A DNA stretch of 64,000 nt, from IMG/VR virus record IMGVR_UViG_3300035670_000127, positions 17,364 to 81,363 of that record; one strand, given 5' to 3'. The DNA comes from a virus. Made by a program: the position numbers and the translations under genes. This document shows, piece after piece, positions 6,237-59,590 of this stretch. Within the stretch, counting starts at the first letter, position 1; every line of letters begins with the position of its first letter. Below the pieces are notes generated by a model. That model searched no databases and was not told where the DNA came from. It was given only the letters and a program-made list of their open reading frames with translations.

Positions 6237-7644
6237 ATGAATCAAGAAACATTAGTATTTACCACCTCTCCTAAAAAAGAGGTTAAAGTTAATCGGCCGG
6301 CCGTGTATGAAGCGGGGCCGATAGGTGGAGTATTTCTACTTAACCATGATAAGTCACCATTGATACCAGTCACCAATGACAGGGCGCGGTGGCTGTTAGA
6401 TAACAAACAGGCCGCTGTTTATCGGCGCTATCCATTTACTCTCATACTGAATAAGAGTCACCAATCCCTTGAACAAGCGTACCCAATCGAGTTCAAAGTT
6501 GACCCAGGTAGCAAAACAACTGGATTGGCTTTGGTTGCCTACATCGATGGAAAATATACCGTCATTTGGGCGGCGAATCTAAGGCATAGAGGTGATATTA
6601 AAAGTGGACTGGAATCCCGTCTGTCAATTCGACGTGGGAGACGCAACCGACATACTCGTTATCGCCCGGCGCGGTTTATGAATAGGGTAGGTTCTAAAAA
6701 GGAGGGTTGGTTAGCACTGTCATTGTTATCAAGGGTGCGTAACGTAGCCAACTGGTTAACGAAGCTAAGAAAGTACGTCCCCATCACTAGCGTCGCAGTG
6801 GAATCTGTGCGATTCGATATGCAAAAACTACGCAACCCAGAGATTAACGGGGTTGGCTATCAACAAGGCGAGTTAATGGGGTACGAGGTACGAGAGTATC
6901 TACTTGAAAAGTTTAATCGCAAGTGTGCTTATTGTGGAAAGGATGGCGTCAAAGAGAAGGGCGTCAAATTACAGATAGAACACGTCACCCCAAGGTCAAG
7001 AGGAGGCGCAGACTCAGTTTCCAACCTCGTCATTGCGTGTCAAAAATGCAATCAGAAAAAGGGGTCGCAGTCCATTGAGGAGTTTTTAGCAAGCCGCACC
7101 GACGACCTTAAAAAAAAATCAAGACCCAGTTAAAGACACCTTTGAAAGACGCGGCGGCGGTAAATGCAACCCGTTATAAAATTTTAGAGGTGTTGAAACA
7201 AAGCGGCCTACCAGTGACAGACTGGACTGGGGTGCGGACGAAAATGAATCGCATTAAACAAGGCTACCCTAAAGACCATTGGATTGATGCCGTTTGTGTG
7301 GGTGAGACTGGGGAGGCTGTTAGCATCCCTGATTCTTTAAAACCATTGCAAATCAAGGCAATGGGGCGAGGCAATCGTTTAATGCAAAGCCATGATGCTT
7401 ACGGGTTTCCTAATAAGAAACCTAATAACAAAGCCAAGCGAGTGCATGGGATACAGACGGGGATATAGTGGAAGTGGAAGGGGTAACCGGACGAGTATCT
7501 GCTATTTCAGTCAACTCGCACTCTGTCAGCATCCCAGTCGATGGTAAACGTAAATCCTTCTCTCTTAGAAAAAGAGAGGCTAAAATTATACAACGGACTG
7601 ATGGGTATAAGTACGATAGAATTAAGCAAGTGCCCTTTTTGTAA
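6237..7644 (+). pseudogene. iscB: IscB RNA-guided endonuclease (IS200/IS605, RRXRR-HNH) with two frameshifts
   Basis: PLIP, YPFTLIL, VDPGSKTTG, RRGRRNRHTRYRPARF, ESVRFD, YQQGELMGYEVREY, HNH, DAAAVNATR, HWIDA, QRTDGYKY. Frame breaks at A9 (7110-7118) and G4 (7459-7462); restored frame ends TAA 7644. Confidence 0.92.
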
Positions 7645-12461: not shown

Positions 12462-12814
12462 TTTTTTATAAAAATATTTTTATATATTTTTTAGGCACGA
12501 GTTAGCTATGCTTATTTATTATAAATATAGAAATAGTATGCACAAGCTACCCTCCATTCATTCTGGAATAATAAGCGGCAGGTGGTGCCGGGCGACCTTA
12601 ATGGCAGACCGTTTTACGCACCCCATACAAAGCGATGGCGGTTATGATTACTGTGTTCTAAATTCGTTCAATATAGCCTCTAAAATTCGATTTTACCTAC
12701 ACGGGTGATGACAGGCACTACACAATCACTGATTTACTGAAATTGACGAAACCTCGCGTCATTACAGCGTTTTGTGTCTAGGATACGTCAAGTGCGTGTC
12801 TATGCAAAACTCGT

Positions 12815-13097
12815 TTTTGTATAGACTGTATAGACTCTGTCATCAACCCCTAGACGGTGAAAACCCGCGCCGTTATTGGCTTGTATGGACTGTATAGGGC
12901 CAACGGGTGTTTTTTCCATTTACTTATATATCCGGCGATATAAAATACTTTCTTCTATATTAATCATGTAATGTAGTGTATACACTCTATACAGTCCATA
13001 CAAGCCTTTAAATTCGTGCCTTCCCGTTGTATAGGGTTTAAACAGGTACTCTATACACCCTATACAGGTTTAAAGTAATGTTTTAAAGGGTTTGTTA
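12815..13097. repeat. Iteron-like locus A (candidate replication origin)
   Basis: Many TGTATAG/CTATACA motifs; perfect 20-bp IR 12878-12897/12987-13006 around an AT-rich core; directly downstream of helicase gene. Confidence 0.75.
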
Positions 13098-13112
13098 ATT
13101 GGTTTCTGTCTT

Positions 13113-14783
13113 TTATCCCTTCGCTTTCTCTTCTAAAATCCCCAGCCAATCCGTAGTCCAGTTCCTCTCGTTTTCCATCAAATCCTGACATATCACCCGT
13201 GCGACTTTAACCGGGTGCGTAGCCAGTAATTTAGCGACGTGGGATACCACTACCCCCTGCACCCCAGTGTGATATTCCATTGCCGTGCAAAGTTCCTCTG
13301 CCAGTTCTGCGATTGCCCCGTCAACTGATTCAGTCACCTCACTACCCAACCCTTCGTTTTTAAATGCGTACTCTACAATTGAGTTTTCAGTGCCCTCTAC
13401 TATCTTGAGTCCAATGAATCCCGACCTTGTCTTTTCGCCCGGCACCCTCATCTGCCTCTTTCTTTCTACACCGTCCACACCCAGAATGATGGTAATCACT
13501 TCCTCCAACTGAGTTGAAAAAGTATTGGTGCTAATCTGCCCCTTCCGCCCGTTTTGTTTGCACCAGCGAATGAAATTTGGATACAAATAGTTGTCTGCTA
13601 ACTCAAACATATTCTCCGTACTCACACCCAAAGCACCGACTTGCACTCTCACTTCAGGTGAAAACTCGACGTTTTGAGATAACCAAGCGATAAGTGGGTT
13701 GGTTTCGATCAGGGTTGCCATTTTGGCATCTTGGGAGGATTTCACTAGGTGGTCGGTATTGCGTAATAGGCTCTCCATTCGGCTAACATCCATCCCCAAT
13801 ACCCAGTTCAGCAAGCCAGGTATCTCACCCTCAAAATCCTCAGACAAATTACGCCGTTTTGAGGGGTGTACGACATGGTCAAGCCTCGCCGATATACGTC
13901 GCCGTGCAATTGCACTGGATGTATCTGAAAAATAAATGGGTGCATTGGCCGCGATAACAACCATGCCAGTGAATGTAAACGCCTCGTCCTGCTGTTTATT
14001 TTTCACCTCCTTTCGCAGCTTATCCTGCCCAGTGAGTGATTTAAAAATGGAACCCTCCCCACCGTATTTGGATGCGTCATTAATCAGAACCAGTCTCTTA
14101 CCTTGGATAGCCGCTGTCTCAAAACGGTTTTCTTCAAGGTATTTCATTGTGGTGATATAGTAATTGGGTTCGCCAATCATAGAGGTTAGCAATCGCGTTA
14201 ACGTCCCTTTCCCTGACCCGCCTGGACCTACGATTTCCATATACCGTTGCAAGTCATACCGCCCCAATAACACGGCCAGAAAGAAGGCACGAATCAACTC
14301 TATCAACTCCTTATCCCCTTTCGTTGCTTCGAGTAACCATTTATGAATGGTTGGGCACGTTGCATCCTTATTGAAATCGTAAGGCAACTGCCAGGTGATT
14401 CTATTCATAGGGTCGTGGGAGGGTGTAAATTCATGGGTGCGAATATTAAGAGTGCCATTAGGGAACGGTATGAGGTCAGGACATACTTCATTATCCCATT
14501 TATCAACGTAGAGGTCGCCCATCAGAAATTGGGTGACACCCTGTGCAAAATTAATACTAAAATCGGAGGTAAATCGTGAGTGGATAGCCTCCCGTATGAT
14601 TTGCTGAATGTGGACTTTTTTAGCCTTGGTCCAAACGGCGTCTTGATACATCCGCCATTCGCCGGTATCTGAATCAAACGCGAGTGTGGAGGCGAAAGAG
14701 GGCGCTAATTGTCTAGCTATTTCGTTTTGGCTAGGCTTTCTAGGAGAAGCGGCAGGTTTGCCATTTTGTGACTTTTTAGACAT
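13113..14783 (-). CDS. P4 alpha/D5-like SF3 helicase (phage/plasmid primase C-terminal family, no primase domain)
   Basis: D5_N (LIPFPNGTL, HDP), GPGGSGKGT, NRFETAAIQGKRLVLIND, FKSLTGQD, AAN, DTSSAIARR, C-terminal wHTH (LYPNFIRWC). Confidence 0.93.
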   Translation of the reverse strand: MSKKSQNGKPAASPRKPSQNEIARQLAPSFASTLAFDSDTGEWRMYQDAVWTKAKKVHIQQIIREAIHSRFTSDFSINFAQGVTQFLMGDLYVDKWDNEVCPDLIPFPNGTLNIRTHEFTPSHDPMNRITWQLPYDFNKDATCPTIHKWLLEATKGDKELIELIRAFFLAVLLGRYDLQRYMEIVGPGGSGKGTLTRLLTSMIGEPNYYITTMKYLEENRFETAAIQGKRLVLINDASKYGGEGSIFKSLTGQDKLRKEVKNKQQDEAFTFTGMVVIAANAPIYFSDTSSAIARRRISARLDHVVHPSKRRNLSEDFEGEIPGLLNWVLGMDVSRMESLLRNTDHLVKSSQDAKMATLIETNPLIAWLSQNVEFSPEVRVQVGALGVSTENMFELADNYLYPNFIRWCKQNGRKGQISTNTFSTQLEEVITIILGVDGVERKRQMRVPGEKTRSGFIGLKIVEGTENSIVEYAFKNEGLGSEVTESVDGAIAELAEELCTAMEYHTGVQGVVVSHVAKLLATHPVKVARVICQDLMENERNWTTDWLGILEEKAKG

Positions 14784-14885
14784 AATACTGTCCCTTTAGT
14801 TAAACTAAAAAATATGAAGGGCAGTATAAAGTATAAATATGGAGGGGAGGGTACTAAATTTTTTTGAAAAAGTTTCAAAAAACGC

Positions 14886-14914
14886 TTGACAATTTAGAAT
14901 TGTGTAGCTATACT
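14886..14914 (+). promoter_or_regulatory. sigma70 promoter for counter-transcript RNA
   Basis: TTGACA-17-TATACT. Confidence 0.85.
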
Positions 14915-14920
14915 ATAGGT

Positions 14921-15034
14921 ATAGTCAATAAGAAAAGCTGATTTGCCCTTCAATCAAAAATCGGTTTTTCCTTTGACTACCCTCCTAGAACCTGACGCAC
15001 TGCTTATGAAAGGAATTGCGTCAGGTTTTTTTTA
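14921..15034 (+). ncRNA. candidate cis-antisense (copy-control) RNA, ~110 nt
   Basis: Near-consensus promoter, long hairpin 14922-14979, CCCTCCT linker, terminator AACCTGACGCA/TGCGTCAGGTT plus T-run; no ORF. Confidence 0.7.
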
Positions 15035-15047
15035 TGCTTATGAACTT

Positions 15048-15076
15048 ATTATAGCATAAGTGAATCTGAAAGTCAA
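15048..15076 (-). promoter_or_regulatory. sigma70 promoter for helicase mRNA
   Basis: Minus strand TTGACT-17-TATAAT with extended TG, about 260 nt upstream of helicase ATG. Confidence 0.8.
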
Positions 15077-15092
15077 GGTTTGGATTGCACAA

Positions 15093-15132
15093 TAAAAAAG
15101 CGGTTATAGCATGTCTGCTTAATCGCTTTTTT
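15093..15132 (-). terminator. rho-independent terminator after WD40 gene
   Basis: AAAAAAGCGGTTA/TAATCGCTTTTTT. Confidence 0.7.
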
Positions 15133-15136
15133 ACCA

Positions 15137-16105
15137 TTATTTAATCCTACCCTTTAACCCCGTCAACTTCGGTATAATCCGAAGTCTAACCTCCCCCGTT
15201 TCCACATCCCAAATGCGCACGGTTCTATCCCATGAACCCGATGCGACGGATTTACCGTCCGGACTGAATGCCACCGAGGTCACCCAGTCACTGTGGCCTG
15301 TCAGGGTGTGAATCAATTGCCCGTCCTGAACTTCCCAAATCCGTACCGTTTTATCGTAGGAAGCGGAGGCAACTAATTCTCCATTTGGACTGAATGCGAC
15401 TGAGGTGACGATGTCGGTATGACCTTGCAATTCAATTTCTATATTCTCTTGCGAGAATAGACGAACCGTGTTATCTGTACAACCCATTGCCAGAATACCA
15501 TAGCAATTGAATGCAAGGGAGGTGGCATACCCAGTCACATTGTAATTAAGAATCCGATACTCTTTTTCGACATCCCATACGGAAACCACACCGTTCCTTG
15601 ATGCCGACACGAGTCTATTGCCGCTGTTATTAAATGCCACCGCCGCCACACCGACGTCGTGTCCTTTTAACTCAGTTACCTCGTCCGTAATGAGATTCCA
15701 TAATTTCAAATTATGAACTGCGTTATCGACCCCGATGGCAACCACCTTGTTATCCGGACTGAATGCGACGCTTGTGATTCCACAAGGATAGCCTTCTTCT
15801 TCCACTCGAATGGGAATGGGTGTTACGCAAAATTTGGTTAGGTACTTCCCGTCTCTGTCCCGAAGCATCACGGTATTATCTCTTGACCCGCTGGCAATAA
15901 TACCTAGACCATTAATAGCAATTGCCTCAATTGTAGAGTGATGACCGTCCATTTGCTGAATTATGTCGCCACTATTTATGTCGAATACACGGATTAGGCC
16001 GTCATTGCAACCAGCGACTAATTGGGAGTAAGCATTGAAGGTAATCGAGTTAATTCTATGAGTTTCACTTTCATAGAATGGTAGTCTGCATATATTGTGT
16101 GTCAT
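15137..16105 (-). CDS. WD40 repeat (7-bladed beta-propeller) protein
   Basis: Repeated GH..V.SVAFSPDG..ASGS.D.TVRIWD. Confidence 0.95.
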   Translation of the reverse strand: MTHNICRLPFYESETHRINSITFNAYSQLVAGCNDGLIRVFDINSGDIIQQMDGHHSTIEAIAINGLGIIASGSRDNTVMLRDRDGKYLTKFCVTPIPIRVEEEGYPCGITSVAFSPDNKVVAIGVDNAVHNLKLWNLITDEVTELKGHDVGVAAVAFNNSGNRLVSASRNGVVSVWDVEKEYRILNYNVTGYATSLAFNCYGILAMGCTDNTVRLFSQENIEIELQGHTDIVTSVAFSPNGELVASASYDKTVRIWEVQDGQLIHTLTGHSDWVTSVAFSPDGKSVASGSWDRTVRIWDVETGEVRLRIIPKLTGLKGRIK

Positions 16106-16307
16106 GTTTCAGTTTCCTCTGTGGAGGATAGAATTAAAGTCAATTCTCTCCTTATAATCTTGCCCGAATAAGTTTTCAACATCCTCGTTGTACCTTCTAA
16201 CCAATCCCTCTACCTCCTCAATATCCTTTCTTAGTCTGTCACAGTGACATAAAAGCAGTCTCTTCTCCTCAGGAATTGCGGATTTGTTCTTGCGTCCATT
16301 TCATGTT

Positions 16308-16508
16308 TCAGTTCCCTCTTTCTGATAATTGTAAAATACTCGCCTGATTCTCTAATGGGCATTCCAATACCCTTTTGAGTTCTTCTTTGATTTCATCCCT
16401 ACCTTGTTTTCGTTTAGCTTTTTTACGAGCCCTGTCACCTCCTCTAATTTCAGAGTATAAGCACCTTCCATCATCTACTCTGGCAGTTCTATTTGAGTAT
16501 GGTTTCAT
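16308..16508 (-). CDS. small basic hypothetical protein
   Basis: ORF within leftward operon. Confidence 0.6.
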   Translation of the reverse strand: MKPYSNRTARVDDGRCLYSEIRGGDRARKKAKRKQGRDEIKEELKRVLECPLENQASILQLSERGN

Positions 16509-16663
16509 AATTAAAGCCTAGATAGTCTTCTAATTGGCGTTCCAGTACCCTCCCTAGCCTACTAATCACGTAGCACATTCCTTGCCGACCATTTCTGTTT
16601 CACACCACTCAGGCTTTGGCAAACCGACGTGGTATCCCATGTTTATCTGTTAGCAAGAATGAT

Positions 16664-16906
16664 TTATAAATCATTATAAGCGTAGCTTGAATCAGAGGAT
16701 TTATAGAGAAACCGTCGCCTCCCAGACCATGCCAACCAACATTCTAAATCGGTCAACTCTTGCCATCGACGGAGTTGTAAAAATCTACTCTGCTTACTCC
16801 AACCTGTTTGCCATCCATAATACCCAGTTCTGTTTCTGGGTTTTAAATAGGTATCTTCGTGATACATATCGTTTGAATACCAAGGTTTTGCTATAATACT
16901 CGCCAT
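16664..16906 (-). CDS. hypothetical protein
   Basis: AGGAGG RBS. Confidence 0.55.
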   Translation of the reverse strand: MASIIAKPWYSNDMYHEDTYLKPRNRTGYYGWQTGWSKQSRFLQLRRWQELTDLECWLAWSGRRRFLYKSSDSSYAYNDL

Positions 16907-16964
16907 CCTCCTTTCCTCTTGTTAAACCCCGCCTTCGCTTTCGCAGTAGCGGGGTACTGTGTTT

Positions 16965-17570
16965 TTATTCTGGTATGCCGTAACGGCTTGTTATTTTCAC
17001 CCATGCTTTCAACGCCGCGATGGCGTCGTATCGCGGGTTATGCGGACTACCGTTTGGTGGAATTACACCCTCCTTCTTTAAGAAGGAATCCACTGAATGC
17101 GGATTCTCTCCTTTTAACAGGAGAAGCGTACCTACATCATGGATGCACATGGGTGACGGTTTTGGTGAGCTTGCATCCCAAATGTTGTATCCCTCTAGCA
17201 TCCCACGGTTTTTAAGGGATTGGGCAAAATACCCCTCAGATGCAATTGTGTTAAATAACCCCGTTTCCACCGGATTTGGACAATGTGCGATGACAACGAG
17301 TTGTTCGTCTACCGTCCCTACTTGCATGTCCAACCACCAATCTGAAAAGGATTGGTAAAGTTCGGTAGTGTCTTCCACCGTTTCAACAATCACCTGGCAC
17401 TGAGGCCAAACGTTTTCTTTTACCCACTGGTCTGGCCAGTGAGTCGGCTCTTCTGCGATTCTCTTTTCAAAGAGAATTTGAGAACCATCGGTGGTGTGAG
17501 TGACAACCGATATAGCGAATGCCTTGTCACGTAAAGCAAAAGTTTCTGCGTCAATCGATATTAATTTCAT
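16965..17570 (-). CDS. DEDDh 3'-5' exonuclease family protein
   Basis: ISIDAET, IHDV, HNPRYDA. Confidence 0.75.
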   Translation of the reverse strand: MKLISIDAETFALRDKAFAISVVTHTTDGSQILFEKRIAEEPTHWPDQWVKENVWPQCQVIVETVEDTTELYQSFSDWWLDMQVGTVDEQLVVIAHCPNPVETGLFNTIASEGYFAQSLKNRGMLEGYNIWDASSPKPSPMCIHDVGTLLLLKGENPHSVDSFLKKEGVIPPNGSPHNPRYDAIAALKAWVKITSRYGIPE

Positions 17571-23275: not shown

Positions 23276-23436
23276 GGTTGACACAAATTGCGTTAGTTTG
23301 TGTTCGGTTGACACAGGTTGACACAGTTTGACGCAATCTGCTATTATTTTACACAAGTTGATACAGTTTAACACAATTTGTGTCAACCTGTGTTAATTTA
23401 GCACAAATTGACGCAATCTGTGTCAACTTGTGTAAA
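23276..23436. repeat. parC-like centromere 1: 10-bp-phased TTGACACA/TTGACGCA repeats
   Basis: About 16 degenerate decamers in both orientations directly upstream of parM. Confidence 0.8.
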
Positions 23437-23491
23437 GTATCGTATAAAAATTTTTACCTGTCAAGGTATATTAAAAAGAGGGTTTATAAAC

Positions 23492-24646
23492 ATGCAGAAT
23501 TTATCTGAAATATTACTACATGGAATCACCAACGGGTTAAGAAAACCGAATATTGTTTTCGGAGGCGTCGACGCTGGGAATGGTTATTCAAAGGGGCTGT
23601 TTTACGTTTTAGTAAACAACCGCTATCAGGTGGTTGAAGTATGTATCCCATCGATAGTCGCCGCGGGTCGAATCGAGACTAATCCGTTCCTTGCTAGTAA
23701 TGAGGGGATTCAAGAGAAGCTATTGCAACTAACCAGCGGTGATGGCCTCCCTTTCACAGTGGCAATGGACATGTCCGTCGATGCAAACAAAATGAATGCG
23801 CTACCAACTGGAGGAGATGTGTATCAATCCTCTATCGCACGAGGCGCATTGGTTCACGCCGTTATTACGAAAGCATTGACTAGCATCGATGCTAATTTTG
23901 GAGGTCAGGAAATCACCTGCTATTTAGCGGGTACGACCATGGCGAGTAACTATTGGGTGGATAATGGTTTGCAAAAAAATCAGCAACGAATCGCAGAGGT
24001 TGCCGCGGCTATTGGGTCTCCTTTCAGTACCTCTAATCAGTACCCAATTATCAATATTGCCCGTACCGAGGTCTTTGGAGAGACTTTGGCCGCAATGTTA
24101 TCTGTTACCATCGATGAGAATGGAAACAATAACGGGGAGTATGCAGATGGTAGTGAAATTGTCTTTGTTGACGTCGGACATACGGACACTGTGATTTTGG
24201 TTGCGGAGATTAAAAACGGTCTCCCAAACATTATCAAACGTCAATCTATCCGAATGGGGATAGGTAGTGGTGTGTTAGAGGTCGTAGCGCATCGCGTCGG
24301 ACATGTCACCGAAAAACCAGTATCCGCCGAACTAGGTTTATTATCTCGTCCTTCGGTAAAACATCGTGGCCGGACGATAGATTTGCTTCCCTTCCAAAAG
24401 GAGGCAATGAACGGGTTAAGTCAACAAGTGCTAGGCTACATATCCAAAGCGATAGGTAGGGGTGATGATTTTGATGCGACTTACTTGGTCGGCGGTTTCC
24501 CACAAGTCGCCATCAAGTTATTCGGGCCGGGTTACTTTACCAATTACGGGCAGATACATAACTTGCAAGTGCCCGACCTGCCCATCTATGCCAACGCACG
24601 GGGCGCATTGCGGGGGCTCATTAAACGAATTATCAACAAGAGGTAG
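23492..24646 (+). CDS. parM: ParM/StbA actin-like plasmid segregation ATPase
   Basis: GVDAGNGYSK, IPS, GETLAA, FVDVGHTDT, YLVGG, ANARG; ATG 23492 with AGAGGG RBS. Confidence 0.88.
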   Translation: MQNLSEILLHGITNGLRKPNIVFGGVDAGNGYSKGLFYVLVNNRYQVVEVCIPSIVAAGRIETNPFLASNEGIQEKLLQLTSGDGLPFTVAMDMSVDANKMNALPTGGDVYQSSIARGALVHAVITKALTSIDANFGGQEITCYLAGTTMASNYWVDNGLQKNQQRIAEVAAAIGSPFSTSNQYPIINIARTEVFGETLAAMLSVTIDENGNNNGEYADGSEIVFVDVGHTDTVILVAEIKNGLPNIIKRQSIRMGIGSGVLEVVAHRVGHVTEKPVSAELGLLSRPSVKHRGRTIDLLPFQKEAMNGLSQQVLGYISKAIGRGDDFDATYLVGGFPQVAIKLFGPGYFTNYGQIHNLQVPDLPIYANARGALRGLIKRIINKR

Positions 24647-58293: not shown

Positions 58294-58608
58294 ATGAAAC
58301 ATGCGTTACTAATTGGGTGTGACGGGAAGTATCTAAAAAGCATCAAAACAGTCCTGGCAAGCTATGAAATATCAGTCATTCGTCATGTCGAAGGCAGGCA
58401 TAGACATGAACAATCACGAGTGACTGTCAACATCCCACAAAAGACCGACTTAATGATTATATTCACTGATTACTTGGGTCATAATATAATGAATTTGTAC
58501 CGTGACGCGGTAAAAGGTACGGGAGTAAAGACTATCCTCTGTAAGAGGTCTGCACCGTTATTAAATCAGCATTTGGAGAAACTATATGCTACAGAAACGA
58601 CGGTTTGA
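58294..58608 (+). CDS. DUF2325 family protein
   Basis: LLIG.D, IP..TDL.IIFTDYLGHN, CKRS. Confidence 0.85.
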   Translation: MKHALLIGCDGKYLKSIKTVLASYEISVIRHVEGRHRHEQSRVTVNIPQKTDLMIIFTDYLGHNIMNLYRDAVKGTGVKTILCKRSAPLLNQHLEKLYATETTV

Positions 58609-59590
58609 TGTGGGTTTCGTAAGGGGGTTGACTCATTCAATTGATTTACCGTCCTTAATGAGTCGGTATAATATTGAATTAGTTAGAAAAGGAAAGGTAT
58701 TCAAAGCCCGTTGCCCATTCCATGATGACAGCACACCCTCCTTTGTGATAGGGGAAGGTTCATCACATTATCATTGCTTTGGATGCGGTGCAAAAGGCAA
58801 TGCCCTGTCATTTCTGATAACCTATGCTAACCTTGATTACGTCAAGGCGGTTCAAGAGTTGTCAGGATTCGTGGGCAGGGAACTGGTTTATGAAGGAGGG
58901 AATGGGTTGGGTAATGCGGTGACTCACTCAAGCAACACCGTCTTTACCAAACCCCCTCGCCCCAAAACAGTCAAGCTACTCGAACCGTATGCACCCGTGT
59001 TGCCAAAGGAGTCGCATCGCTTTATCCCTAAGTCTCACTTTGAACTGGGAGAGCCGATTAATGTGTGGTGGTATACTGATTCATACCTAGTGTATTTATT
59101 CCCTTATCAGTATGATGCGCAAGGCAATAAGAAAAAGGAGTTTCGACCTGTGCATTGGCAACCTTTTAAACAGCGGTGGGTTTTTGGAGACCCTAGTGAC
59201 TGTCTATTGCCTCTCTACAAGATTAACGAACTGACAGAGGGGCAAAAGATAATTTTCTGCGAAGGTGAGAAGGCCGCGGATGCCGCCAGTTATTACTTTA
59301 AAACGGGCTTGTGTACAACCACCGCCCATGGTTCTAAATCACCCTCGCGCTCTGATTTTGAACCCGTAGTTGGCCATGAGGTGTTGATATTTCCTGACAA
59401 TGATTTACCGGGATGGTTGTATGCCTGTGAAGTGGCTAGTTTATGCAAGCGGGCAGGGGCTAGGGAGGTTAAGGTTGTTTATTGGGATTGTGGTCAGGTA
59501 CCAGCGAAGTGGGATTTAGCCGACCCACTAGAGGCTGGTTGGAGTAAGGGGAGGTTAGTTAACTCTGTTAAGGTATTTAATTATGAGTAA
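58586..59590 (+). CDS. primase: CHC2 zinc finger plus TOPRIM domain
   Basis: CPFHDDSTPSF..HCFGCG; PLY, CEGEKAADA, FPDND.PG, WDLAD. Confidence 0.9.
   Translation: MLQKRRFDVGFVRGLTHSIDLPSLMSRYNIELVRKGKVFKARCPFHDDSTPSFVIGEGSSHYHCFGCGAKGNALSFLITYANLDYVKAVQELSGFVGRELVYEGGNGLGNAVTHSSNTVFTKPPRPKTVKLLEPYAPVLPKESHRFIPKSHFELGEPINVWWYTDSYLVYLFPYQYDAQGNKKKEFRPVHWQPFKQRWVFGDPSDCLLPLYKINELTEGQKIIFCEGEKAADAASYYFKTGLCTTTAHGSKSPSRSDFEPVVGHEVLIFPDNDLPGWLYACEVASLCKRAGAREVKVVYWDCGQVPAKWDLADPLEAGWSKGRLVNSVKVFNYE

What the first reader, a model, noticed from the sequence alone, without database searches (positions are those of the whole stretch)
14783..15076. Antisense RNA and pseudoknot-capable leader controlling the replication helicase
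Seen: convergent near-consensus promoters, TTGACT-17-TATAAT (-, 15076-15048) for a ~260-nt helicase leader and TTGACA-17-TATACT (+, 14886-14914) for a ~110-nt two-hairpin terminated RNA fully complementary to that leader. Two long-range complementarities cross each other: 14944-14952 (hairpin loop) with 14815-14823, and 14978-14985 with 14846-14853. Known: IncI/IncB plasmids use a counter-transcript to block a long-range pseudoknot needed for rep translation. Inference: an analogous copy-number control acting on a P4/D5-type helicase.
Basis: partly seen in the sequence, partly recalled or inferred. Interest (0 to 1): 0.8.

Follow-up and report, generated by a model that had tools for sequence, protein, structure and literature searches.

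The report
Antisense RNA brake on phage helicase
A freshwater tailed phage carries, inside the long untranslated leader of its replication helicase gene, a small backward-reading RNA gene that most likely throttles helicase synthesis by making the leader refold over the ribosome-binding site, a design well known from plasmids.

Summary
Only 4 such strong promoter matches occur in the 64-kb window.

The same layout precedes 53-60% identical helicases in two other phage lineages (L007/L083 and L082), with no detectable sequence similarity to the window's spacer. Their long-range helix shows 3 compensatory double changes and no broken pair.

In all three lineages the downstream arm of that helix also matches the ribosome-binding site. 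This fits a three-part switch: the antisense RNA covers an upstream pre-emptor, and the freed arm closes the start site.

The nearest described mechanism is pSK41 RNAI, more than IncI/IncB, because no leader peptide is present. Plasmid-style copy control is plausible but unproven. The record is a tailed phage with no integrase or ParA/ParB, with iterons beside the helicase gene and a weak actin-like partition hit.

No RNA data exist for this sequence. Earlier notes of this scan describe the same kind of cassette on other phage DNA. I class it as a new member of a known kind.

The parts
13113..14783 (-). Replication helicase gene, 556 aa: D5_N + DUF5906 (P4-alpha/D5-type SF3 helicase) without a primase domain
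   Evidence: ORF list. Pfam D5_N 7.5e-17, DUF5906 1.2e-14, Pox_D5 0.0016 (below its cut-off). The start is conserved in a 10-protein alignment.
14784..14800 (-). Ribosome-binding region (AAAGGGACAGUAUU before the AUG), the sequestered element
   Evidence: It is paired with the 14815-14826 arm in the leader MFE. Mean unpaired probability over -14..+3 is 0.16.
14815..14826 (-). Arm B' (UACUGCCCUUCA), which can pair either with the RBS or with B upstream
   Evidence: 9 of 9 complement to 14944-14952. Duplex with B is -14.5 kcal/mol, against -11.9 for the local RBS hairpin. Arm versus RBS P = 0.0025 in 2000 shuffles.
14846..14853 (-). Arm A' (UACCCUCC), 3' partner of the conserved long-range helix
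   Evidence: It lies 67 nt past the antisense TSS, against 70 and 68 nt in L007 and L082.
14886..14914 (+). Antisense promoter TTGACA-17-TATACT
   Evidence: 11 of 12. In the contigs of 3 other metagenome runs (X3, X5, X6) C14913 reads A, giving TATAAT. The same hexamers and spacing occur in L007, L083 and L082.
14921..15033 (+). Predicted 113-nt counter-transcript: hairpin 1, 7-nt single-stranded spacer CCCUCCU, terminator hairpin + U8. The 5' end is inferred from the -10 box.
   Evidence: Fold -40.4 kcal/mol, z -6.9. No Rfam family matches. No ORF with an RBS (read).
14922..14979 (+). sRNA hairpin 1 with a 13-nt loop GCCCUUCAAUCAA
   Evidence: z -6.2 for the 60-nt piece. The 1-nt deletions at 14930 and 14971 in 3 natural variants fall on opposite sides of its internal loop.
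14944..14952 (-). B (UGAAGGGCA in the leader), a candidate pre-emptor lying in the target of the sRNA loop
   Evidence: No listed difference in X3, X5 or X6.
14978..14985 (-). A (GGAGGGUA in the leader), 5' partner of the conserved long-range helix; complementary to the sRNA spacer
   Evidence: It lies a few nt 3' of the terminator-complement hairpin, as in L007 and L082.
14987..15033 (+). Intrinsic terminator of the counter-transcript (11-bp perfect stem core 14989-14999/15017-15027, then T8)
   Evidence: (I5).
15048..15076 (-). Helicase leader promoter TTGACT-17-TATAAT with TG extension
   Evidence: 11 of 12. No listed difference in 3 natural variants. TTGACT-17-AATAAT/GATAAT in L007, L082 and L083.
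14784..15041 (-). About 258-nt untranslated helicase leader (5' end inferred)
   Evidence: Fold z -5.7. No AUG upstream of the start codon.
15093..15133 (.). Two-way terminator-like hairpin flanked by A6/T6, which insulates the cassette from the upstream WD40 gene
   Evidence: Inverted repeat I3; own terminator finder. L007 and L083 have an equivalent hairpin before their leader promoter (read).
12814..13067 (.). Iteron-like TGTATAG repeats in two inverted blocks around an AT-rich centre, just downstream of the helicase gene (candidate origin)
   Evidence: TGTATAGGTC repeats sit at the same place in L083, and related repeats in L082.

Best explanation
This is a replication-control cassette of an approximately 81-kb tailed phage. 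A strong promoter (15076-15048, - strand) makes a helicase mRNA with a leader of about 258 nt. A convergent strong promoter inside that leader (14886-14914, + strand) makes a non-coding RNA of about 113 nt, which ends at its own terminator and is fully complementary to leader positions 1 to about 121.

The leader works as a three-part switch:
- A downstream arm (B', 14826-14815 in the window; A' in the relatives L007/L083/L082) can pair with the ribosome-binding site and start codon. That closes the start site.
- The same arm can instead pair with an upstream 'pre-emptor' that lies inside the antisense target: B at 14952-14944 in the window, helped by helix A:A'; A in the relatives. That leaves the start site open.
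- When the counter-transcript binds the nascent leader, through its 13-nt loop and single-stranded spacer, it takes the pre-emptor away. The arm then folds onto the start site and helicase translation falls.

Because the RNA's dose follows template number, this gives negative feedback on the replication initiator.

Shown from sequence: all the signals, the folds, the conservation of the layout, and the compensatory changes in the long-range helix.
Inferred: that the RNA is made, the direction of the effect, and the kinetics.
For: Signals and fold.

Same layout in relatives: leader promoter, complement of the antisense terminator, element A, hairpin, antisense promoter, element A', RBS. It occurs upstream of 53-60% identical helicases in L007, L083 and L082. 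blastn finds no similarity between these spacers and the window's.

Specificity: among 95 helicase loci with at least 200 nt of upstream DNA (114 examined, 19 too short), only these 3 have an antisense promoter plus terminator. Of 128 generic matches to the leader-promoter pattern in IMG/VR loci, none has the full layout.

Long-range helix: it is beyond chance in every lineage. Window: best helix P = 0.0195, both helices together P = 0.002. L007 and L082: 0 of 2000 shuffles. It sits at equivalent positions, A at +56/+65/+65 and A' 67/70/68 nt past the antisense TSS.

Covariation: A:A' is 12 bp in L007/L083 and 15 bp in L082. 3 of the 12 shared pairs changed on both sides and none is broken. 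RNAalifold finds the same helix.

Arm versus RBS: the arm matches the RBS window -20..+6 with P = 0.0025 (window), 0 of 2000 (L007) and 0.019 (L082). Masking the antisense-covered part makes the arm pair with the RBS in L007, L083 and L082; the unpaired probability falls from 0.48 to 0.32 and from 0.62 to 0.36.

Constraint on the non-coding leader: L007 and L083 versus L082 are 80-82% identical over the leader, against 72% over the 2.8-kb module.

Natural variants: contigs from three other metagenome runs span the spacer. They turn the antisense -10 into TATAAT, keep the sRNA fold at -39 to -43 kcal/mol through paired deletions in its internal loop, and show no listed change in B, B', the RBS or the leader promoter.

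Replication context: iterons lie next to the helicase gene in 3 lineages.
Against: There is no expression evidence. No RNA run holds the stretch, so the RNA is predicted, not seen.

Comparative depth is thin. There are three lineages, two of them 82% identical to each other, plus three near-identical variants of the window, whose difference lists are incomplete (30 differences were not shown).

In the window the RBS is predicted closed in both states, with unpaired probability 0.16 free and 0.24 masked. The folding program cannot model the B:B' pseudoknot, so the window's switch rests on complementarity alone: P = 0.02, and not significant in the cruder tests. B is mostly paired in the nascent-leader ensemble.

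Hairpin 1 is not stable in L007 (z -0.9) and only modestly so in L082 (z -2.4). Its pairs shift register between lineages rather than covary column by column.

One relative (L006, helicase 57% identical) has no cassette, so the control is dispensable.

The SD in the window (AAGGGA) is weak, and the host and its use of SD sequences are unknown.
Confidence: 0.55

Rival explanations
1. The antisense RNA is real, but it works without a refolding switch. Either the 113-bp RNA duplex triggers nuclease cleavage and decay of the helicase mRNA, or the two convergent promoters about 130 bp apart simply interfere with each other's transcription. The long-range helices would then serve mRNA stability or be incidental.
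For: Full complementarity over about 121 nt and convergent strong promoters. In the window the RBS is predicted closed whether or not the target is masked. pIP501 shows that convergent transcription matters in such cassettes (passage in PMC5703833).
Against: It does not explain why the downstream arm is complementary both to an element inside the antisense target and to the RBS in three lineages. It also does not explain the 3 compensatory changes in A:A'.
Confidence: 0.15
2. Transcription attenuation of the pT181/pIP501 type: binding of the antisense RNA lets a terminator form in the leader, so transcripts stop before the helicase gene.
For: The pre-emptor logic is the same as in pT181 (passage in PMC5703833). 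In the window the arm-RBS hairpin is followed by UUAUGUCU, 5 U in 8 (read).
Against: In L007/L083 and L082 the induced hairpin includes the start codon and is followed by GCCAGCC... and GUCAACAAAA..., not a U run. The hairpin loops are 17-23 nt long. The terminator scan finds no - strand terminator in the leader.
Confidence: 0.07
3. ColE1/pSYSA-type primer control: the leader transcript itself primes or activates replication, and the counter-transcript controls that RNA rather than helicase translation.
For: In the cyanobacterial plasmid pSYSA, an abundant asRNA of about 150 nt overlaps the transcript just upstream of the primase-helicase Rep gene slr7037. That transcript is proposed to prime replication (PMC9978351: abstract and section 23 read). 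The helicase here has no primase domain. Its nearest annotated relatives are cyanobacterial plasmid proteins at 33-38% identity.
Against: The phage has its own DnaG-type primase gene. The iteron-like candidate origin lies at the other end of the helicase gene, 1.7 kb from the leader. The arm-RBS complementarity in three lineages is not explained.
Confidence: 0.07
4. The small RNA mainly acts in trans on host or other phage mRNAs, for example through its C-rich loop and spacer as an anti-SD, and its overlap with the helicase leader is secondary.
For: In the window the loop (GCCCUUCA) and spacer (CCCUCCU) resemble anti-SD seeds.
Against: The spacers of the L007 and L082 RNAs are not C-rich, so the anti-SD look is not conserved, whereas complementarity to the cis partner is. 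No second target copy is found in the 81-kb record.
Confidence: 0.05
5. No discrete RNA is made: the promoter-like and terminator-like signals are chance or serve DNA-level functions.
For: No transcript data. Promoter scans are consensus matches only.
Against: Two of the only four 11-of-12 matches in 128 kb of strand lie here, convergent. The promoter-to-terminator unit recurs in sequence-unrelated form in other lineages. The -10 is even closer to consensus in natural variants.
Confidence: 0.08

Closest known systems
pSK41 RNAI / rep leader (staphylococcal RepA_N plasmids), as reviewed in PMC5703833 (passages read)
   Same: The antisense RNA is complementary to the rep leader about 100 nt upstream of the start site. 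It has two stem-loops separated by a short single-stranded spacer (8 nt there, 7 nt in the window). Binding is proposed to induce a stem-loop that sequesters the RBS, without attenuating transcription.
   Different: There is no sequence or Rfam relation. The initiator is a D5_N/DUF5906 SF3 helicase, not RepA_N. The RNA is longer (113-125 nt against about 83 nt). The carrier is a tailed phage, probably of a freshwater bacterium. In the window the pre-emptor lies in the target hairpin loop and crosses a second helix. Nothing has been tested experimentally here.
pT181 RNAI with pre-emptor and stem-loop IV (passage in PMC5703833)
   Same: It is a three-element leader. The 5' arm of the start-proximal stem-loop pairs with an upstream pre-emptor unless the counter-transcript takes the pre-emptor away.
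   Different: pT181's main effect is transcription termination at stem-loop IV. In L007/L083/L082 the induced hairpin is not followed by a U run.
IncI-alpha / IncB (ColIb-P9 repZ-Inc RNA, pMU720 repA-RNAI) pseudoknot control. Summary passage in PMC8053102; the primary papers were seen only as references.
   Same: The counter-transcript targets a hairpin in the rep leader. Long-range pairing between that hairpin's loop and a sequence next to the RBS competes with antisense binding. The window's 14944-52/14815-23 pair has this geometry.
   Different: There is no leader-peptide gene. In the relatives the conserved long-range helix uses a single-stranded spacer target, not a loop. Here the arm is an RBS sequestrator rather than a direct activator. 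The initiator family is unrelated.
ColE2 RNAI / Rep leader (passage in PMC5304414)
   Same: [quoted passage not shown] There is no leader peptide (that detail is recalled, not read). The paper also describes control modules as exchangeable units separate from the rep gene, which fits the presence, absence and divergence of the cassette among related helicases here.
   Different: Rep there is a primase. I did not read the details of the ColE2 leader structure.
pSYSA asRNA1 / ssr7036 upstream of slr7037 (CyRepA1) in Synechocystis 6803 (PMC9978351: abstract and section 23 read)
   Same: An abundant antisense RNA is encoded just upstream of a primase/helicase-type replication gene, in a group of replicons (cyanobacterial plasmids) that holds this helicase's nearest annotated relatives.
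   Different: asRNA1 overlaps a small protein-coding gene, has three stem-loops, and is proposed to control a primer RNA in ColE1 fashion. Here the target is a non-coding leader with an RBS switch. I did not test homology to Slr7037 itself.

Membership tests
IncI-alpha/IncB-type pseudoknot control | Counter-transcript complementary to a hairpin of the rep mRNA leader | tested here: met
   A 113-nt predicted RNA lies wholly inside the leader. Its expression has not been shown.
IncI-alpha/IncB-type pseudoknot control | Leader-peptide gene (repY/repB type) whose translation is coupled to rep and is blocked by the antisense RNA (PMC8053102 passage) | tested here: not met
   There is no AUG in the window's leader. 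The only long frame (TTG at 14878, 53 codons) has no RBS and is shifted by indels in X3, X5 and X6. The AUG in L007's element A is absent from L082.
IncI-alpha/IncB-type pseudoknot control | Pseudoknot between the target hairpin's loop and a sequence beside the rep RBS, needed for translation | tested here: inconclusive
   Complementarity is 9 of 9, with P = 0.0195, and it crosses A:A'. There is no covariation, as no listed difference touches either arm in 3 close variants. It is absent as a loop interaction in L007/L082.
IncI-alpha/IncB-type pseudoknot control | Sequence or covariance-model membership of the RNA | tested here: not met
   cmscan of 13000-17000 against Rfam 15 at E up to 10 returned 4 matches, all well below their gathering scores, and none to a plasmid counter-transcript family.
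pSK41-type RNAI control (works-like comparison) | Antisense target about 100 nt upstream of the start site, not overlapping the RBS | tested here: met
   The target ends 138 nt (window), 117 nt (L007) and 111 nt (L082) before the AUG.
pSK41-type RNAI control (works-like comparison) | Two stem-loops separated by a short single-stranded spacer | tested here: met
   Window. L082 is similar. In L007 hairpin 1 is weak, z -0.9.
pSK41-type RNAI control (works-like comparison) | Antisense binding induces a stem-loop that sequesters the RBS | tested here: inconclusive
   In silico this holds for L007, L083 and L082, and the arm-RBS complementarity is significant in all three lineages. In the window the fold shows the RBS closed in both states. 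No experiment has been done.
pSK41-type RNAI control (works-like comparison) | RepA_N initiator and homologous RNA | tested here: not met
   The protein is D5_N + DUF5906, and there is no Rfam match. It is therefore an analogue, not a member.
pT181/pIP501-type attenuation | The induced stem-loop is an intrinsic terminator (followed by a U run) upstream of the start codon | tested here: not met
   The induced hairpins include the start codon and lack a U run in L007/L083/L082. No - strand terminator was found in the leader.
P4-alpha / D5-type primase-helicase | D5_N domain plus SF3 helicase core | tested here: met
   PF08706 7.5e-17 and PF19263 1.2e-14.
P4-alpha / D5-type primase-helicase | N-terminal primase domain fused to the helicase | tested here: not met
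   The 556-aa protein has no primase family hit. A separate DnaG-type zinc-ribbon primase gene lies at window 58586-59590. More distant relatives carry DUF3854, Toprim or Prim-Pol domains.
Phage-plasmid (needed for 'copy-number control') | Partition system and autonomous replicon, with no integrase | tested here: inconclusive
   No Phage_integrase, Resolvase, CbiA/ParA or ParB_N hit in the 81-kb record, which CheckV rates 92% complete. The 412-aa ORF at 23408-24646 hits the actin-like MreB-like_C family at 3e-07. There are iterons beside the helicase gene. A plasmid state has not been shown.

The most novel reading that the evidence does not exclude
The cassette could be an exchangeable RNA 'identity tag' for a family of approximately 80-kb freshwater phage-plasmids. 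In the plasmid prophage it would set copy number. It would also act as an RNA-based incompatibility or superinfection barrier, because a resident's counter-transcript would shut off the helicase of any incoming phage that shares the same leader. That selection would explain three observations: phages with 53-60% identical helicases carry cassettes of identical architecture but no detectable sequence similarity; one relative (L006) has none; and the window lineage has rebuilt the switch with a loop pseudoknot.
Probability: 0.2. Interest if true: 0.7.

Novelty: new member of a known kind. Interest (0 to 1): 0.45.

Why it matters
Counter-transcript control of replication initiators is textbook biology for plasmids. 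In my searches of the held library I found no paper describing it for the replication helicase of a tailed phage.

Here the design is seen in three phage lineages from lake and other environmental metagenomes. The evidence is comparative rather than a single-sequence fold.

If the RNA is made, three things follow:
- It gives a simple, testable handle on how these uncultured phages limit replication.
- It is a possible marker of a plasmid-like prophage state.
- It is a compact, portable RNA switch (promoter, 113-nt RNA, 258-nt leader) that could be tested in cyanobacterial or other hosts.

It also shows that plasmid-type control modules travel with P4/D5-type helicase replicons across the plasmid-phage boundary.

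Tried and rejected
Searches for relatives that gave little:
- Exact-peptide scans for close relatives of the helicase found none in viral contigs or genome contigs. An alignment-based query was needed.
The contigs encoding the closest proteins, P0002-P0005 and P0008-P0010, could therefore not be fetched.
- L005 (91% identical) is cut at residue 70 and has no upstream DNA.
- Two pattern scans of IMG/VR for more cassette lineages added nothing. L121 is identical to L082 over the stretch read. Of 128 generic promoter matches, none had the full layout.

RNA families and expression:
- Rfam gave no credible hit.
- No RNA holder is listed for the stretch, so expression could not be examined.

Statistical and structural tests that failed or were unclear:
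- For the window, global duplex energy and longest Watson-Crick run against shuffles were not significant.
- A rank control was confounded by windows overlapping the upstream partner, and I set it aside.
- MAFFT cannot align the window's RNA with the L007/L082 RNAs in a meaningful way.
- Hairpin 1 shows a register shift, not column-wise covariation.
- A 7-bp AU-rich match between the loop and a downstream site in L007/L082 scores no better than the shuffles, and I dropped it.

Readings considered and rejected:
- Type I toxin-antitoxin: no small ORF lies on either strand of the spacer.
- Riboswitch or another known cis element: no Rfam hit.

Not done:
- Host identity was not pursued. The only pointers are the cyanobacterial plasmid relatives of the helicase and freshwater sources.
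- Papers PMC1170848 and PMC93579 are not held, so the IncI/IncL-M primary work is cited only through reference lists and a review passage.
- Supplementary files were not opened.
- The claim that this is not in print for tailed phages rests on searches only.


Full report
WHAT IS THERE

The window belongs to an 81,363-base IMG/VR virus record that CheckV rates 92% complete. It encodes a portal, major head protein, head protease, large terminase, ribonucleotide reductase and a thymidylate-synthase-like protein. It also encodes a beta clamp and a Mu-F-like protein, and a DnaG-type primase. It is therefore a tailed phage.

The gene under study (13113-14783, - strand, 556 aa) carries D5_N and DUF5906, the P4-alpha/D5 type of SF3 helicase, and has no primase domain. 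Upstream lies a 353-bp spacer (14784-15136) and then a WD40-repeat gene.

The spacer holds the following:
- a two-way terminator-like hairpin at 15093-15133;
- the leader promoter TTGACT-17-TATAAT with a TG extension, at 15076-15048;
- the complement of a strong hairpin plus A8;
- a convergent promoter TTGACA-17-TATACT at 14886-14914.

The unit from the + strand promoter to its terminator gives a 113-nt RNA with two hairpins and a 7-nt spacer (-40.4 kcal/mol, z -6.9). It has no ORF with an RBS and no Rfam match.

CHECK OF THE OBSERVATION

All coordinates are right. In the whole 64-kb window only 4 sites match the sigma-70 consensus at 11 of 12 or better, and two of them are this convergent pair. 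Thirty shuffles gave a mean of 1.2.

Both complementarities exist and cross each other. With GC-weighted helices and 2000 shuffles, the better one (14944-52 with 14815-23) has P = 0.0195, and the two together P = 0.002. Cruder measures were not significant for the window, so on its own sequence the case is moderate.

COMPARATIVE EVIDENCE

The helicase has few close relatives. Those with upstream DNA are L007 and L083 (nearly identical to each other), L082 (with L121, an identical copy over the stretch read) and L006.

L007/L083 and L082 have the same order of parts as the window:
- an insulating hairpin;
- TTGACT-17-nATAAT with TG;
- the complement of an antisense terminator directly after the start;
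- element A;
- a hairpin region;
- the antisense promoter TTGACA-17-TATACT;
- element A';
- the RBS.

They yield RNAs of 124-125 nt. blastn finds no similarity between these spacers and the window's, while L007 and L082 are 81.6% identical over 255 nt. That is more than the 72% seen between L083 and L082 over the whole 2.8-kb module.

The layout is specific. It occurs in 3 of 95 helicase loci with enough upstream DNA, out of 114 examined; start sites of the distant ones are crude estimates. It occurs in 0 of 128 generic promoter-pattern matches. L006 lacks it: its helicase start overlaps the stop of a 111-codon upstream gene, and no promoter-like site is found nearby.

THE SWITCH

In every lineage the leader's predicted fold closes a long-range helix. 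One partner is an element a few nucleotides 3' of the terminator-complement hairpin. The other lies 67-70 nt past the antisense start.

Between L007/L083 and L082 this helix is 12 and 15 bp long. It has 3 pairs changed on both sides (U-A to C-G, A-U to G-C, A-U to C-G) and none broken. RNAalifold recovers it.

The upstream partner is exactly the part of the leader that faces the single-stranded spacer of the small RNA. When the antisense-covered part is masked, the downstream arm pairs with the RBS and start codon in L007, L083 and L082. The arm-RBS match is beyond chance in all three lineages: P = 0.0025, 0 of 2000, and 0.019.

In the window the RBS-closing arm is B' (14826-14815). Its alternative partner is B (14952-14944), in the apical part of the antisense target hairpin. 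The duplex energies are -14.5 kcal/mol for B:B' against -11.9 for the RBS hairpin. The positional equivalent of the relatives' helix, A:A', is also present, and the two cross.

NATURAL VARIANTS

Contigs from three other metagenome runs (freshwater and lake water) span the whole spacer:
- The antisense -10 reads TATAAT.
- Two 1-nt deletions fall on opposite sides of the internal loop of hairpin 1.
- A TC insertion in A shifts its 8-bp pairing onto the neighbouring C-rich repeat in two of the variants.
- No listed change touches B, B', the RBS or the leader promoter.

Refolding in a script keeps the RNA at -39 to -43 kcal/mol. These lists are incomplete and the variants are close, so this is consistency, not proof.

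MECHANISM AND RIVALS

The best reading is negative feedback on helicase translation by a counter-transcript that removes a pre-emptor. I put this at 0.55.

Rivals are weaker for these reasons:
- Attenuation is unlikely, because the induced hairpins include the start codon and lack a U run.
- Primer control of the pSYSA/ColE1 kind is weakened by a separate primase gene, and by iterons at the far end of the helicase gene in three lineages.
- Duplex-triggered decay or promoter interference may add to the effect but do not explain the arm.
- A trans-acting role is not conserved.

COMPARISON WITH WHAT IS KNOWN

The closest described mechanism is pSK41 RNAI. It has two stem-loops with a short spacer and a target about 100 nt upstream, and it induces RBS sequestration. 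pT181 has the same pre-emptor logic (PMC5703833).

IncI/IncB control shares the competition between antisense binding and a loop pairing near the RBS, but it needs a leader peptide (PMC8053102), which is absent here. None of these is a family the cassette belongs to: the initiator and the RNA are unrelated.

LIFESTYLE

No integrase, resolvase, ParA or ParB was found. An actin-like ATPase hit, preceded by one of the window's four strong promoter matches, and the iterons make a plasmid prophage possible. This is not shown, so 'copy-number control' stays an inference.

EARLIER NOTES OF THIS SCAN

After I had reached the pSK41 comparison, a look-up showed that the scan had already described the same kind of cassette on an 83-kb phage and on other phages. 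Neighbouring notes on this genome had proposed the iterons and the partition genes. I checked the iterons and the actin-like hit myself, and only partly.

VERDICT

The cassette is a new member of a known kind of control, in a new carrier. Interest is moderate.

Noticed in passing
window 12814-13067: Iteron-like TGTATAG(A/G)C repeats lie in two inverted blocks around an AT-rich centre, directly downstream of the helicase gene. TGTATAGGTC repeats sit at the same place in L083 and related ones in L082, but not in L006. This is a likely origin bound by the helicase's C-terminal part.
   Followed up: partly
window 23318-24646: One of the window's four 11-of-12 promoter matches (TTGACA-18-TATTAT at 23318, + strand) precedes a 412-aa ORF with a weak actin-like (MreB-like_C, 3e-07) hit. 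It is a possible ParM-type partition gene in a phage with no integrase, ParA or ParB hit.
   Followed up: partly
window 58586-59590: A separate 334-aa gene carries a DnaG-type zinc ribbon (PF01807, 7.8e-27). Primase and SF3 helicase are therefore split in this phage, whereas more distant relatives of the helicase are fused to DUF3854, Toprim or Prim-Pol domains.
   Followed up: partly
L006 2667-3002 and 2995-4785: A relative with a 57% identical helicase has no antisense cassette. Its helicase start overlaps the stop of a 111-codon upstream gene. By eye, the C-terminal part of that gene resembles the gene that ends just before the cassette in L007/L083, as if the cassette were inserted between the two genes.
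   Followed up: partly
window 15137-16105: A 322-aa WD40 beta-propeller gene lies directly upstream of the cassette in a phage genome. In run X3 the contig replaces 31 bases near its 3' end (15144-15176) with 346 other letters.
   Followed up: no
window 6237-7133: An ORF with RRXRR (3.4e-59) and HNH domains, i.e. IscB-like, inside the phage.
   Followed up: no
window 14835-14849 and 14810-14824: Two direct copies of AAATATG(A/G)AGGG(C/G)AG in the leader DNA give two C-rich arms, A' and B'. The natural TC insertion after 14979 moves the A pairing from one C-rich stretch to the next.
   Followed up: partly
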